Shown here in pieces: positions 1-6,167 of a stretch of 64,000 nt of DNA. Where the stretch lies: the NCBI RefSeq assembly GCF_018350175.1, contig NC_058369.1, forward strand, positions 13,702,001 to 13,766,000. The letters run 5' to 3'. Numbering within the stretch: position 1 is the stretch's first letter; each line of letters opens with the position of its first letter. The DNA is from Felis catus (Eukaryota). A program made the position numbers and the translations under genes. The notes beneath the pieces were generated by a model. That model was not told where the DNA came from, made no database searches, and saw nothing but the letters and a program-made list of their open reading frames with translations.

Positions 1-417
1 GGACTTAGCAGGCCTTCAATAAAATGTTTTTGCCTTCCAGAGGAGGCAGAACCACTGTTTGGCTCTTAGTCCCTCTAAATATCAGATATACATGAATTCC
101 TGCCAGTACTTACTAAGCACGTACTGTGTACCAGGCATGGTGGTGACCAGGGAGACTGAAACTCCTACTAAGATTCTAGTAGGGGAGATGAAATGATACA
201 TAATGAAATAAAATGGGGCAGTGCCTATATTAGGCAGGCTGGAGGGATATGTAGCCTGCCATGCTGAGATTCAGGGGACTAGTGTGCCAGGAAGAGGAAG
301 CAGCTTGTGCAAAGGCCCTGAGGTGGGGTCCGCCTTGGTGTGTGGGAAGAAATGGGCACCCTGCGCCTAGCACATAGGAGTCCCACGAGTTACCAGTTTC
401 TCTTTCTCTCTCCACAG
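1..417 (+). repeat. Local duplicate of the 3' part of the GDF15 intron (paralog of about 5103-5520), L2-derived core
   Basis: Manual alignment: about 90% identity over the first ~325 nt including a 50-nt exact match (GGGAGACTGAAACTCC...GAAATGATAC); weaker similarity to the terminal CAG. Confidence 0.92.
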
Positions 418-2136
418 GAAACCTCCAGCCTAGCATCTCTTCTGCCCATGAGAAATCCTGCTCCCACTGCCAAGGCCACTATGAGTCTTATGGTCCCCGA
501 GGCACCACGTGGGCCTGGGAGTCAGCTCCTTGTCACCCCAGAGGAAGCATCCAGGCCCCTGGAACACCAGATCCACAAAAAGACTGGACATACACCACTT
601 GGGATATGTCTCATAGCTTCACCACAATGCTGCCACTTTGCCTCTGAGCCCACAGGTCAGAATGGCAGCACTTAGGGTGAGGCAGGCACTAGCTAATGTC
701 CACATCTTGAAACTTAATTCCTAACAGATCCTGAGTGCACATTCCAACAGACCTTGTCCCCTGACTCCCTCCCTGCCTATGAGTCCTCCTTACATCCCTG
801 TGAAGAGATGATGGGGGGTGCCATTACCACCTTTTACGGACAGGGAAACTGAAGCTCATTTATCACAAGCTGGGGGTTGAGGACTCACAGATCATGAGGG
901 AAAACAGTCCAGCCTTTAGCTGCTCTTCCTTCCCCCAAATTCATTTCTCTTCCTTCCTCTCCTCATCAAACCTACCTTCAGCTACCCAGAGACCCACAGA
1001 AGTGCCTGCCTCCCCAGTACACATGGGGCACAGAGAAAGGGGACACAGTGAGAAAGAGAGAAGCAACCCCAGGCTTGGAGAGGGGGCCGGCTCCCCACTG
1101 CTTGGGTTGGGGTCATCCAAGGGTTCAAAAGGGGTGGGGTCTGGGGCAAGTGGCTTTTGTGGCGACACACTCTGTCCTGAGGAAATCCCAGAGGAAGTCA
1201 GTTTGGAATTGGGCTCCCTGCTCCCAAGGCATGCAGTTTCCCCGGACAATACAGGAGGCATCATCTGGCTTTGGGGGAGCAGAGTTGGCTTTCTACTTGC
1301 CTTGGGGGCACCTGGCACGTTTCTGGGGCTCCCTTCACATCTCAGGTTTCTATCCCGCTCGAGATCTCTCTTTAGGACAAACCGTTCCTGCTGAAAGTGA
1401 CTGTGTCTTTCCCCAAAGGAGGGTTTGGGCCCTACATCCTCTGGCCGTCTTCTCCCTGACGCCCAGAGTTCCTGTGAATGCCTTGTCTGAAGCCCCTGTG
1501 CCTGGGACCCCAGGGTCTGCTGGACTTTACCCAAACTTGACACCCCGGAAGGCAAATAAAACAGCTTAAATAGGTGATTTCTCACGTCCTCGTGAGAGGT
1601 TAGCCTCCACCAGGGTTGTCCTCTGCCTGGGGGCATCAGTGGGCAGAAGGGGCCCTGATTCACAAGGATCTCTGTCCTTGGCGTGTGACCTGGTGCCCAG
1701 TTTGTGTTGGCTCTTATGAGTTTGCTGAGTTAAGAATGGTAAGATTCCTGTACTTAATGTTCTCCTTCCTCACGACCCACACTGCTTTTGTTCTATGCAC
1801 AGAGAGTTTGAGTACTTGCCTATGGTCACACAGCAAAGTGGGTGGCACTAGGATTTGAATCACGATCGTGCTGACCCACAGCGTGTGCAAAAATTTCCAC
1901 TCCCTGTGTGTTCTCCCCACAGCCCTGACTCAGAATGCCACTGCCACTTTTTACAGATGGGGAAACCGAGGCCCTGCCGGTTGATGCCTTGTCCCACATG
2001 TCATGGCCAGGGAGAAGGGGGCCAGAATGTCAACCCAGGCCAGCTTCTCTGGAGCTGACAAATGTCCAGTCTGTTGGGACCTGGATCAGGAAAAACTCTT
2101 TATGAGGCTTTTAAATTTGGGGGGGGGGGGAAGAGA

Positions 2137-2180: not shown

Positions 2181-3884
2181 CAGTCCTAGACAGAGGGAAC
2201 TTCAGAATCCTATCACAGGCTTAGAAATGCCAGGAAACAGTCAGCCAAAGGCTGGTCTCCAGTGTGGAGCTGCCCCCTACAATCTTACTTGCCCCTCCTG
2301 GTTTGGTTCCCTTAAGAGAAAAGTATATGAACGGCGCCTGCAGCGTGAACTCTGGTGAAAGTTGGCATCTCACCATTATTGATCTTGCAGGGATGCTGCC
2401 CCACCCACCCCAGGTGAGGTCAGACCTAGGCACTGGTGACCCTTGCTGACCTGCCCTTACCACGTTAGGATTACTCAGCACTCTGGCTCACCTCTGGCGC
2501 CTGGCCTCTGCGGAGGGCATAGCAGTGCGGCCGCACAGTGGCCCCAGCTCCTTGTCCAGTCAGCGCAGGACCCTTTTTGAGCTCTTACTGTGTGGGCCAA
2601 GCTGGTGGGGCAAGAGGCCCATCTTCCCAACAGCCCCTGTCAACATGGTAGTGACTTACTAAGCACCTGAATGCCCCGGGCATCACAGAGGGATACTTGA
2701 GACCCATAGCTGGGCGGTAATCCCACTGCAGAGAGGCTGAGACTGAGACTCGGCGGAGGTGGGGGGGGGGGGGTTGCTGAGCCTTGGCTGGGCTCACACA
2801 GCCAGTGGGTGCATGTTGGGGGTGGCGGGGAGGCCCGACCGTGTTCCTGCAGTGTGGGGATTTGCTGTGTGACCCGCAGCAAGCCCTTGTCACCTCTTGC
2901 CTGCACACGCTGTCACACTTTACACATCCCCACGATCCGCCTCAACTGCTGCCCATCTTCCCTGTGGCCAAGAAACAGGCACAGGGGCCAGTGCCTGGGG
3001 CCAGAGGAGAAGGGTCTGAGGGGAAGGCCTGGGTCTTCCTAGGGCACCCCTTGCCCTTCCACCATCTGGTGGCGGGCCTGATAACAGCCCTCCAATTCCC
3101 TGCCCCCTCCACTCTGGACTGGGCCCCAGAGTATCTTCATCTCTGTCCAAGTCTTCAAAGGGCCTCCAGTCTGGGGCAGACAGAGCCAAGCACAGATACT
3201 CCCAGTGCTGTGAGGTCAGGTCTGCGCTGAAGGAAAGGATGGGGGTTGGGAGCATGCGGCTGAGCCTGGAAAGGTAATGGTAGGCAAGGCTTCCTGGAGG
3301 AGGAGCTCTTTGGGTAGGGTTTTGAAGAACGAGCAGGAGTTCCCCCTAAGGATCAGGGACTGCAAAAACACTCAGTCCATCACACGACCTCCTATGGGTC
3401 TGGCCCTGTCGTTTATGCCCCATTTGAATTTCTCTCCAGTGAAAGTCTCAGTTCTTGTTTTCCGGATGAAGAAACAGACGTGGGATGAAGGGGAATGACT
3501 TGCCTAAGGTTGTACCTCCTGGCTCTTTCTCCTCTGCTTCCTTTGGTTTTCAACATCTGGAGCCTTTGACCCTAACCAGGAAGGGAGAGAGAAAATCCCA
3601 TGAGGGAGAAGACCTCCTCTTAAGGGCTTGCTATGGAATTGAGCACATAGAAATAAGTCTTTTTCTGACAAAAGCATTCTTTTCACCAGTCCACCAAGCT
3701 GGAAGGAAGTCCCCATTTCATAGAGGATACTGAGGCTCAAAGAGGCTTCTGGGGGGGGAGGGCGTCCCCCACTTCCCCAGGAGAACTCCCCAGAAGGGCC
3801 TCCCCCTTAAAAGCAGCCCAAGACTCAGCCATGTATGGTCCCTGGAGTGTTTACTCTGCACCCAGAGCGGAAGGGACCAGGCAG

Positions 3885-3915
3885 GCGGGGGCGGACAAAG
3901 TCCGGGGATTATAAA
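3885..3915 (+). promoter_or_regulatory. GDF15 core promoter: GC box/EGR1-Sp1 site (GCGGGGGCGG) and TATA box (TTATAAA, 3909-3915)
   Basis: Motifs read directly, TATA about 55 nt upstream of the ATG; layout matches the human GDF15 proximal promoter as I recall it. Confidence 0.85.
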
Positions 3916-3967
3916 GGCCAGTCCAGCAGCGTCCGGTGTCTCAGTTCAGAACTCAGCTAGCACAGGC

Positions 3968-6167
3968 ATGCCTGGGCCTGGACCCACACCACCAATGCTG
4001 CTGATGCTGCTGATGCTGCTGATGCTCTGCTGGCTGCCTTCGGGAGGTGCCCTGTCTTTGGCCCAGGAGCACCTCCCGGCCTTTCCGGGACCCTCAGAAG
4101 CTCGCTCCGGTACGGATGTCTCCAGATTCGAGGAGTTTCGGAAACTCTACGAACACCTGCAGACCAGGTTGCGGTTGAACCAAAGCTGGGAAGACTCAAA
4201 CCCTGACCGAGTCATCTCTGAAGCTCAAGTCCGGATACTCACTCCAAAGCGTGAGTGAAATCTAGGAGACCGGCGCCCCCTGTGCAGCTACCATCATCTA
4301 ACCAGTGGTTCTGAGACACAGGGACCCAGACCTGCCACCGAGCCTCAGTTTCCTTATCTGTGAACCGGACAAGAACATCCCCCCTAGGGGCTTCGGGGGG
4401 TGGGGGGGGGAGGTGGTGGCCGGGTTTATGCCAAGACTAGGCGGGGTGTGGCCAAAGTGAGATGTTCAAGATCGCAGATGGGGAAACTGAGGCCCAGCGA
4501 GTCTCTTGAAAACTCACAGAGCCTGGAATTTCCAGAAACAAAATCGGGCGCGGGGTGGGGGTGGGGTCCCTGTCCTTGGGTTTAGGGGTGGGGGAGGGCA
4601 CGCAATCTAGGAGAAGGGATGCAGGGGCGGGGACGAGAGGAGCGCAGCCCAGGGATAGGCCGAATCTGTCCGTACTGGTTCCCAGTCTGATGCAATCCCT
4701 TGACAAGCCACTGCTCAAGTCTCACGTAGCAGGTGCCTTGGGGGGGGGGGGTATTTTCTGCCCCCTCCACGGAGGCTCTAGGGGGTAGAGAGGGCGGAAG
4801 GAGATCTGGGCTGCGCTAACTGGGAGGGGTTAGGGAAAGAGCGTCAAACCAGAAGGGGGCGCTATTATCCCACCCTAACCCTACGTGTGCTGTGAGACTC
4901 CAGGCATGCCTCTCGCTCTCTGTGAGCCTGGTGACTGAGTCCAGGGCCCTCAAACCCTAGTCTGCTCCCTATCCCCAACACCTGTACCAGCCTGGGGGCC
5001 TGAGGATCCTGGGGAGCCAGGCACCCTTCATTTCTCAGACATGGAAACCAAGATCCAGAGAGTTGAAAACACAGCAGCTGGTTGTTGTAGCCCCAGCCCC
5101 AGGCACCTAGTAGCCCTTCAATAAAACGTTTTTGACTTCCAGAGGAGGCAGAACCACTGTTTGGCTCTTAGTGCCTCTCAAAATCAGATCCACATGAATT
5201 CCTGCCAGTACTGACCAAGCACCCACTGTGTACCAGGCATGGTGGTGACCGGGGAGACTGAAACTCCTACTAAGATTCTAGTAGGGGAGATGAAATGATA
5301 CCCAATGAAAGAAAATAGGGCAGTGCCTATGTTAGGCAGGCTGGAGGAACACGTAGCCTGCCATGCTGAGATTCAGGGGACTAGTGTGCCGGGAAGGGGA
5401 AGCAGCTAGTGCAAAGGCCCTGAGGTAGGATCCAGGTTGGGGGGGGGGGCGGGGAATGGGCACTTGCGCCTGGTGCACATAGGCCCGTCACTGACTGACC
5501 GGCTCTCTTCTCTCCCTCAGTGCGACTTGGGCTGGGCGGCCACCTGCACCTGCGCATCGCCCGGGCTGACCTGACGAAGGGGCTCCCCGCATCCTTCCGC
5601 CTGCATCGCGCGCTGCTCAGGCTGTCCCCGACGGAGCTGAGCTCGTGGGACGTGACGCGGCCGCTGCGGCGTCAGCTCAGCCTTGGAGGTTCCGGGGCGC
5701 CCACCCTCCACCTGCGACTGTTGCCTCAGAGGGACCGCTCGCCGGCGGCGTTGCCTTCTTCGGCACGTCCCCAGCTTGAGCTGCACTGGCGGCCACGCGC
5801 GGCCAGAGGGCGCCGCAACGCGCATGCGCGCTCCAAGGACGACTGCCCCCTGGGGGCGGGGCGCTGCTGCCGCCTGCAAAGCTTGCGCGCGTCGCTCGAG
5901 GACTTGGGATGGGCCAGCTGGGTGGTGGCGCCTCGCGAGCTGGACGTGCGCATGTGTATCGGCGCGTGCCCAAGCCAGTTCCGGTCGGCCAACACGCACG
6001 CGCAGATGCAGGCGCGCCTGCACGGCCTGAACCCCGACGCGACGCCGGCGCCGTGCTGCGTGCCCGCCCGCTACGAGCCGGTGGTGCTCATGCACCAAGA
6101 CAGCGACGGTCGGGTGTCGCTTACGCCCTTCGACGACCTCGTGGCCAAGGACTGCCACTGCCTATGA
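3968..6167 (+). CDS. GDF15: Growth/differentiation factor 15 precursor (TGF-beta superfamily), 309 aa; exons 3968-4250 and 5521-6167
   Basis: Exon 1: signal peptide and NQSWEDSN propeptide motif, donor AAGC|gtgagt. Exon 2: acceptor ctcag|TGCGA, phase 1 joins to LRLG. RGRR furin site and cystine-knot mature domain (CPLGAGRCC...CIGACPSQFR...PCCVP...DCHCL). 283+647=930 nt, in frame. Confidence 0.98.

What the first reader, a model, noticed from the sequence alone, without database searches (positions are those of the whole stretch)
1..417. Second copy of the GDF15 intron 3' end, cut exactly at the splice acceptor, 3.5 kb upstream of GDF15
Seen: 1-417 aligns co-linearly, same strand, with about 5103-5520, roughly 90% identical over the first ~325 nt with a 50-nt exact stretch. 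Similarity runs off the left edge and stops at the acceptor (tctctccacag|GAAACC versus tctccctcag|TGCGAC); what follows has no resemblance to GDF15 exon 2. Established: independent L2 insertions are far more diverged from one another, so shared L2 ancestry does not explain this. Inference: a lineage-specific tandem duplication (possibly with ongoing gene conversion) left a partial GDF15 paralog upstream, perhaps promoter + exon 1 + intron with a replaced last exon. That could encode a propeptide-only or chimeric product under GDF15-like stress control. I know of no description of such a unit.
Basis: partly seen in the sequence, partly recalled or inferred. Interest (0 to 1): 0.7.

Follow-up and report, generated by a model that had tools for sequence, protein, structure and literature searches.

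The report
Ancient broken GDF15 copy in carnivores
Just upstream of the stress-and-nausea hormone gene GDF15, this cat-family genome carries a broken partial copy that lacks the promoter, start codon and hormone-coding exon and whose exon also appears in a seal gene model, so it is likely an old dead duplicate whose near-identical patches were probably refreshed later by gene conversion.

Summary
The match is real: 1-325 is 297/325 identical to GDF15 intron 5103-5427, and similarity ends at the acceptor (417/5520). It is the right end of a ~2.3-kb degenerate GDF15 copy (about -1930..417): 5' flank, a ~516-bp deletion removing TATA, ATG and signal peptide, an exon-1 remnant with intact donor, the whole intron, no exon 2. 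Most of it is 68-78% identical to GDF15; patches of 90-92% and 98% are best read as later gene-conversion tracts. It is not felid-specific: an elephant-seal gene model starts with the orthologous remnant (26/33 aa; 15 states shared by both remnants, absent from both GDF15s), and a camel model has a similar segment. The scan noted a camelid copy before (e1-9308631). One option stays open: the remnant exon is open in cat and seal and in phase with GDF15 exon 2, so it could give a signal-less proGDF15; no RNA junctions could be examined. Separately, three afrotherians have two intact GDF15 genes, apparently from an independent duplication. Verdict: old truncated pseudogene; modest interest.

The parts
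1..417 (+). 3' part of the duplicated GDF15 intron, ending at its own acceptor AG (the finding). The copy continues left of the window (0 = base before position 1; G000:C2 position = 13,702,000 + coordinate): rest of the intron -799..0 (68% to -90); exon-1 3' remnant -932..-800 (matches 4088-4250, 70%, 30 nt shorter, open frame, Met at -920, phase-1 GT donor, protein P0100); duplicated 5' flank -1930..-933 (70%, 90%, then 98% over -1396..-933).
1..325 (+). In-window part of the 92% tract (-76..325, partner 5020-5427), inferred gene-conversion tract
326..417 (+). Last part of the copied intron with pyrimidine tract and acceptor; 61/88 identical to 5428-5520
418..856 (+). Single-copy sequence after the copy's acceptor; no exon-2 similarity; origin unresolved; MIR-like piece near its right end
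857..2058 (+). Block X, downstream copy: two-copy in the genome, 893/1145 (78%) identical to -24517..-23321, which lies 3.6-4.8 kb past the PGPEP1 stop codon (-28080)
   Evidence: PGPEP1 located with recalled short motifs
2540..3571 (+). GDF15 upstream flank that is duplicated at -1930..-933; 3118-3571 is the partner of the 98% (445/454) tract
3572..4087 (+). Part of GDF15 that is deleted in the upstream copy (about 516 bp): TATA box at 3910, ATG at 3968, signal-peptide codons; short microhomology at both breakpoints
3968..4250 (+). GDF15 exon 1, coding part (P0001)
4251..5520 (+). GDF15 intron; CARE-consensus match at 4688
5521..6167 (+). GDF15 exon 2, coding part; single copy in the genome; 97% identical to the tiger-represented felid cluster

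Best explanation
The stretch is the 3' end of a truncated tandem duplicate of GDF15 that lacks promoter, start codon, signal peptide and exon 2 and is shared with a seal, so it is likely a dead pseudogene from before the cat and seal lineages split, and its 90-98% patches were probably copied from or to GDF15 later by non-allelic gene conversion. Shown: the anatomy, the mosaic identity, the missing parts, the orthologous segment in a seal model. Inferred: (1) one tandem duplication of a unit running from block X (just past PGPEP1) through at least the GDF15 intron, in an ancestor of Carnivora and probably of camels too (Ferungulata/Scrotifera or older); (2) complementary decay, with the upstream copy losing exon 2 (or never receiving it) and later its promoter by a microhomology-flanked deletion, and the downstream copy lacking the ~21 kb that separates X from the flank in the upstream copy, so that distal elements such as the p53 site now reach GDF15 across the dead copy; (3) repeated conversion between copies 4.5-5.1 kb apart, about 19-35 Myr ago (intron 3' and mid-flank tracts) and 4-7 Myr ago (98% tract), the youngest tract stopping where the deletion ends homology.
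For: Identity by segment: X 78%, far flank 70%, mid flank 90%, near flank 98%, exon remnant 70%, intron 5' 68%, intron 3' 92%, last 90 nt 69%. Best 400-column identity 0.985 against a maximum of 0.893 in 5000 permutations of 3342 aligned columns. Seal model P0162 (KAF3829263.1) N-terminus vs remnant: 26/35, E 9e-15 for the pair; 26/33, with 15 positions shared by both remnants and absent from both species' GDF15; three independent origins rejected, AU p 0.0003. Camel model P0036 (EPY79933.1) has two exon-1 domains in series, the first 18/27 identical to camel GDF15. Best placement of the remnant alone is on the horse+pangolin+carnivore stem; crown feliform branches are 6.6-9.2 logL worse. dN/dS remnant vs GDF15 0.76 on 38 codons, differences by codon position 12/11/9. 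K2P 0.27-0.44 in old segments gives 59-96 Myr at 2.3e-9 per year (rate from PMC9290555, passages). CpG o/e 0.16 in the copy vs 0.44 in GDF15 over the matching part.
Against: No DNA from other species could be aligned, so conversion is inferred from one genome and its direction is unknown. Seal and camel evidence are single automated gene models: the seal segment is in 1 of 15 listed members of its cluster, the camel double domain in 1 of 248 proteins scanned. One event versus separate carnivoran and camelid events is not resolved (delta logL 3.7, AU p 0.26). For the remnant alone, feliform-stem and tiger placements were not rejected (AU p 0.09, 0.08). The ages disagree between segments (X 59 Myr, intron 96 Myr), and the slower rate in the same paper (1.54e-9) would push the oldest beyond any plausible date, so K there is probably inflated by CpG decay or alignment error. 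The remnant is about as conserved between cat and seal (26/33) as GDF15 exon 1 itself (27/33), and keeping ATG and an open frame in both has only 4-21% probability in my neutral simulations. Whether the 21-kb spacer is ancestral is not shown: no MIR-core match in it.
Confidence: 0.8

Rival explanations
1. The remnant exon is a living alternative exon: a transcript started upstream (for example at the p53 site) splices from its donor at -800 to GDF15 exon 2, or into the GDF15 leader, giving a proGDF15 without a signal peptide that would stay inside the cell.
For: Donor identical to GDF15's over the first 10 intron bases; phase 1 kept, junction codon with exon 2 is a sense codon in frame; Met and open frame in both cat and seal, 4-21% expected under neutrality; pyrimidine-rich tract and AG just upstream of the remnant; the seal predictor joined this exon in frame to the GDF15 leader.
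Against: No promoter; nearer acceptor at 417 gives a stop; near-neutral dN/dS against GDF15; a stop-free 38 codons is expected in 27-42% of neutral copies; 26/33 identity is compatible with neutrality if cat-seal distance is 0.12-0.20 (P 0.10-0.58); the seal segment is visible only because a predictor chose an open frame (ascertainment); no database protein of 80-2000 aa scored with the remnant as query (3 candidates), though that search also missed the seal model, so it is weak.
Confidence: 0.07
2. The high-identity patches are kept by purifying selection on duplicated regulatory elements, or the 98% flank is a recent second duplication, so the copy works as a shadow enhancer of GDF15 and not as a conversion partner.
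For: The tracts lie 400-850 bp upstream of the ATG and in the intron of a stress-inducible gene; human PGPEP1-GDF15 interval carries p53-bound enhancer chromatin (PMC4287438, passages).
Against: 445/454 identity with exact runs of 77-102 nt is far above the gene's own exon-1 identity; no p53 or CARE consensus match falls in the tracts; the stepwise 70-90-98% gradient ending at the deletion fits nested tracts.
Confidence: 0.09
3. One reading: a recent lineage-specific duplicate with its own promoter and exon 1, making a propeptide-only or chimeric product through the acceptor at 417.
For: Donor and acceptor are both intact.
Against: Promoter, ATG and signal peptide deleted; stop at the junction codon; copy shared with a seal; 68-78% identity in most segments.
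Confidence: 0.02
4. Assembly artefact or shared repeat ancestry.
For: A dispersed repeat fragment does lie at about 267-347 (16 short hits).
Against: Co-linear homology over 2.3 kb including unique flank and an exon; other repeat copies match only 40-63 bp; independent runs hold 0.98-0.99 of the words; seal ortholog.
Confidence: 0.01

Closest known systems
GDF15 (MIC-1), parent gene; two exons, one intron, TATA box, between PGPEP1 and LRRC25 (PMC7299427, passages)
   Same: Co-linear flank, exon-1 3' half, donor, intron and acceptor; same strand, same locus.
   Different: No TATA, ATG, signal peptide or exon 2, so no TGF-beta domain and no hormone.
Unprocessed (duplicated) truncated pseudogenes in tandem with their parent, with non-allelic gene conversion (general knowledge, recalled)
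   Same: Intron kept, adjacent to parent, disabling deletions, near-neutral divergence, patchy identity.
   Different: The disabling lesions are whole-part losses; the surviving exon has no stop or frameshift, and the high-identity tracts are all non-coding.
Camelid upstream GDF15 remnant (Camelus ferus model EPY79933.1; scan note e1-9308631)
   Different: The camel model keeps an MPG start and signal-like residues ahead of the segment, which the felid copy has lost; orthology is favoured but not proven.
Afrotherian GDF15 / GDF15-like pairs (aardvark XP_007943664.1 and XP_007943667.1; Elephantulus XP_006886042.1 and XP_006886040.1; Rhynchocyon KAM6216848.1 and KAM6216850.1)
   Different: Both copies are full-length (61-68% identical); the two afrotherian clades group together (100/99; mature domain AU p 0.002 against alternatives), so this looks like a separate duplication. 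A shared origin with the felid remnant is 13.6 logL worse but not rejected (AU p 0.10).

Membership tests
Functional GDF15 gene / TGF-beta ligand | Signal peptide and start codon | tested here: not met
   3572-4087 equivalent deleted
Functional GDF15 gene / TGF-beta ligand | Exon 2 with furin site and cystine-knot domain | tested here: not met
Functional GDF15 gene / TGF-beta ligand | TATA promoter | tested here: not met
   no TATA-like hexamer in -1400..-900; GDF15 has it at 3910
Unprocessed duplicated pseudogene | Homology to parent including intron and flank | tested here: met
Unprocessed duplicated pseudogene | Disabling lesions | tested here: met
   promoter/ATG deletion, no exon 2, stop at own splice junction
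Unprocessed duplicated pseudogene | Neutral evolution of the former coding sequence | tested here: inconclusive
   dN/dS 0.76 on 38 codons; cat-seal 26/33 fits neutrality at d 0.12-0.20 but equals GDF15's own conservation
Unprocessed duplicated pseudogene | No translated product | not tested
   no reads were laid; word shares cannot tell RNA from DNA
Non-allelic gene conversion tract | Identity clustered beyond chance within older paralogous alignment | tested here: met
   0.985 vs maximum 0.893 in 5000 permutations
Non-allelic gene conversion tract | Paralogs group by species within the tract | not testable with these tools
   no other mammalian genome DNA is held
Ortholog of afrotherian GDF15-like | Groups with the afrotherian '-like' clade | tested here: inconclusive
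   13.6-14.1 logL worse than the best tree, AU p 0.09-0.10; shared Q/K states are CpG transitions that also occur in hipposiderid bat GDF15 orthologs

The most novel reading that the evidence does not exclude
Carnivorans have kept the exon-1 remnant of a dead GDF15 duplicate for over 50 million years as an alternative exon that splices in frame to GDF15 exon 2 and yields a signal-less, intracellular proGDF15 driven from the upstream p53 site.
Probability: 0.07. Interest if true: 0.75.

Novelty: new member of a known kind. Interest (0 to 1): 0.36.

Why it matters
GDF15 is described as a single two-exon gene in the review I read (PMC7299427, passages; 'pseudogene' and 'paralog' occur 0 times in its main text). 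This locus shows that it was duplicated in tandem early in carnivoran, probably laurasiatherian, history, and that afrotherians keep two intact copies from what looks like a second duplication. Practical points: the near-identical 450-bp flank tract can confuse short-read mapping, primers, guide RNAs and promoter studies of feline GDF15; gene predictors splice the remnant into GDF15 models (seal, camel); and conversion can move variants between a dead copy and the live gene's upstream region. If the remnant exon were used, it would give a new non-secreted form of a major stress hormone.

Tried and rejected
Exon-2 remnant after 417: a global alignment looked suggestive but three controlled tests found nothing. 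Shared Q and K residues as markers of orthology with afrotherian GDF15-like: rejected, they are CpG transitions and recur in bat orthologs. Pfam PF01470 search for PGPEP1 in the genome: 0 matches; first motif scan failed; located with shorter recalled motifs. First codon comparison was out of frame and was redone. Protein search with the remnant, longer lengths: 3 candidates, none scored. Exon-1-length search: 10 hits, all look like ordinary exon-1 ORFs. RNA: of 24 listed runs, 3 on record as RNA (gut or mammal metatranscriptomes) hold 0.72-0.90 and 11 guessed-RNA runs hold 0.49-0.90 of the words of -1000..2000; no reads were laid, so this is no evidence of transcription or splicing. MIR-core scan to show that the 21-kb spacer is ancestral: no hit. 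Trees used 40 rows picked by hand from the 98 hits plus P0101 (named lineages; unnamed, partial and near-duplicate rows left out), 45; topologies were fixed species trees from my own knowledge. Literature: searches listed no paper on a GDF15 duplicate or pseudogene (listings and abstract starts only); GDF15 passages in PMC10919930 (a reference title), PMC12328210 and PMC10448979 were irrelevant. The library lacks most subscription papers; no supplements were read, and Supplementary Fig. 1A of PMC7299427 (placental GDF15 alignment) may list the afrotherian pairs. Scan look-ups by place, relatives and sequence returned nothing.

Full report
Coordinates. Window positions are used throughout; negative values continue leftwards (0 is the base before position 1; G000:C2 position = 13,702,000 + coordinate). 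The genome is felid: exon 2 translates to a protein 97% identical to the tiger-represented GDF15 cluster.

1. Observation. Confirmed. 3-378 aligns to 5105-5483 at 336/380; 1-325 is 297/325 identical; the longest exact run is 50 nt; the last ~90 nt to the acceptor fall to 61/88. In the genome only these two places match over the length; 16 of 18 matches are 40-63 bp hits to a dispersed repeat piece at 267-347. Nothing after 417 resembles exon 2: local score reached by 54 of 200 shuffles and 137 of 300 real windows; an anchored CpG-tolerant score of 6.6 was reached by 80 of 190 controls, while simulated decayed exon 2 scored 263-312; exon 2 is single-copy.

2. Anatomy. I fetched 80 kb upstream. 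The copy runs from about -1930 to 417 and is co-linear with 2540-5520. In order: 5' flank (70%, then 90%, then 445/454 = 98% over -1396..-933); a junction that skips 3572-4087, about 516 bp holding the TATA box (3910), ATG (3968) and the signal-peptide codons, with a short microhomology at both ends; an exon-1 remnant -932..-800 (70%, 30 nt shorter, open frame, HMM E 2e-7); a donor identical to GDF15's over 10 intron bases; the intron (68% to -90, 92% over -76..325, 69% to the acceptor). A second two-copy block, X (857-2058 vs -24517..-23321, 893/1145), lies in the same orientation; its upstream copy is 3.6 kb past the PGPEP1 stop at -28080 (recalled motifs). So the order is X ... 21 kb ... 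broken copy, X', flank, GDF15: a tandem duplication with different losses in each half (inference). The origin of 418-856 is unresolved.

3. Age. K2P is 0.27 for X and 0.39-0.44 for far flank, exon remnant and 5' intron, against 0.108, 0.085 and 0.020 for the three high-identity parts. At 2.3e-9 per site per year (PMC9290555, passages) these give 59, 86-96, and 24, 19, 4.4 Myr; the same paper's 1.54e-9 gives, by hand, 87 Myr for X and 35, 28 and 6.5 Myr for the tracts, and implausible values for the CpG-rich parts. Direct evidence came from gene models. A southern elephant seal model (P0162, KAF3829263.1) begins with a peptide 26/33 identical to the remnant and only 11/33 to seal GDF15; 15 positions are shared by both remnants and absent from both GDF15s; separate felid, seal and camelid origins are rejected (delta logL 60, AU p 0.0003). 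My two-domain scan of 248 proteins missed this model; I saw it among five printed sequences, and a profile built from the two remnants then scored the next protein at 23 bits against 83-87 for the two themselves. A wild camel model (P0036, EPY79933.1) has two exon-1 domains in series, the first 18/27 identical to camel GDF15. One event on the Ferungulata or Scrotifera stem fits best, but separate carnivoran and camelid events are only 3.7 logL worse (AU p 0.26). After finding P0036 I saw the scan's unchecked note e1-9308631 on a front-half GDF15 copy about 6 kb upstream in a camelid; it agrees but is not independent support.

4. How it works. The best reading is a dead duplicate. It has no promoter, ATG-signal peptide or ligand exon; splicing its donor to its own acceptor gives a stop at the junction; dN/dS against GDF15 is 0.76 with differences spread 12/11/9 over codon positions; CpG o/e has fallen to 0.16 against 0.44; the recalled CARE consensus found in the GDF15 intron at 4688 has one mismatch in the copy. 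The identity mosaic is far from random (best 400 columns 0.985; maximum 0.893 in 5000 permutations), and the youngest tract ends at the deletion junction, as expected if conversion stops where homology stops. Conversion is inferred from one genome; the species-tree test could not be run. A zero-mismatch p53 consensus at -5593 in single-copy DNA lies upstream of the dead copy; human data show p53-bound enhancer chromatin in the PGPEP1-GDF15 region (PMC4287438, passages); orthology of the sites is not tested.

5. What stays open. The remnant keeps a Met, an open frame, a strong donor and phase 1, so a splice to GDF15 exon 2 would be in frame and give a proGDF15 without signal peptide. Cat-seal identity (26/33) is about that of GDF15 exon 1 (27/33). 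Under neutrality 26 or more of 33 has P 0.58-0.03 for d 0.12-0.25, and keeping ATG and frame in both has P 0.21-0.04 (the indel rate and d range are my assumptions), with ascertainment in favour of open frames. This is a weak hint. No junction data were obtained; the RNA word shares cannot tell RNA from DNA.

6. Comparison. It works like, and passes the testable features of, an unprocessed truncated pseudogene with conversion tracts; it fails membership of functional GDF15/TGF-beta ligands. In passing, aardvark and two sengis each have two full-length GDF15 proteins with near-consecutive accessions; elephants and manatee contribute the '-like' copy. The two afrotherian clades form one group (100/99), strongly so in the mature domain (AU p 0.002 for alternatives), not decisively in exon 1 (p 0.19-0.21). 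A shared origin with the felid remnant is disfavoured but not rejected (AU p 0.10), and the residues they share are CpG transitions that recur in bat orthologs.

7. Novelty. Eight searches (listings only) showed no paper on a GDF15 duplicate; the review PMC7299427 (passages) describes one two-exon gene. The library is incomplete and no supplements were read. Verdict: a real, apparently undescribed, but ordinary kind of gene fossil at an important locus; new member of a known kind; interest 0.36.

Noticed in passing
proteins P0075/P0086, P0082/P0091, P0083/P0085, P0062, P0101, P0066: Afrotherians keep two intact GDF15 genes (aardvark, two sengis; 61-68% identical within species), forming two clades that predate the split of elephants and sengis. 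Annotated as 'GDF15-like' but no paper turned up. Probably more interesting than the felid remnant.
   Followed up: partly
L011 4407-4426 (-5593..-5574 in extended window coordinates): Zero-mismatch match to the recalled 20-bp p53 consensus in single-copy DNA, 9.6 kb upstream of the GDF15 ATG; a second, 2-mismatch match at -21248.
   Followed up: partly
window 857-2058 and -24517..-23321: Two-copy block X, 78% identical, with an AATAAA-type hexamer in both copies (1555 and -23799); the upstream copy may be PGPEP1 3' UTR or just beyond it (not tested).
   Followed up: partly
proteins P0162 and P0036: Automated seal and camel GDF15 models look like chimeras of the upstream remnant and the true gene; database users should treat these N-termini with care.
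   Followed up: yes
protein P0084 (Molossus nigricans): 'LOW QUALITY' GDF15 model with an unrelated N-terminus and a diverged exon-2 part; could be a damaged ortholog or a model error.
   Followed up: no
window 3900-3967: The GDF15 leader is open in frame with the ATG and holds a tandem CAG in phase 1 just after the TATA box, about where the seal model enters; it has no pyrimidine tract.
   Followed up: partly
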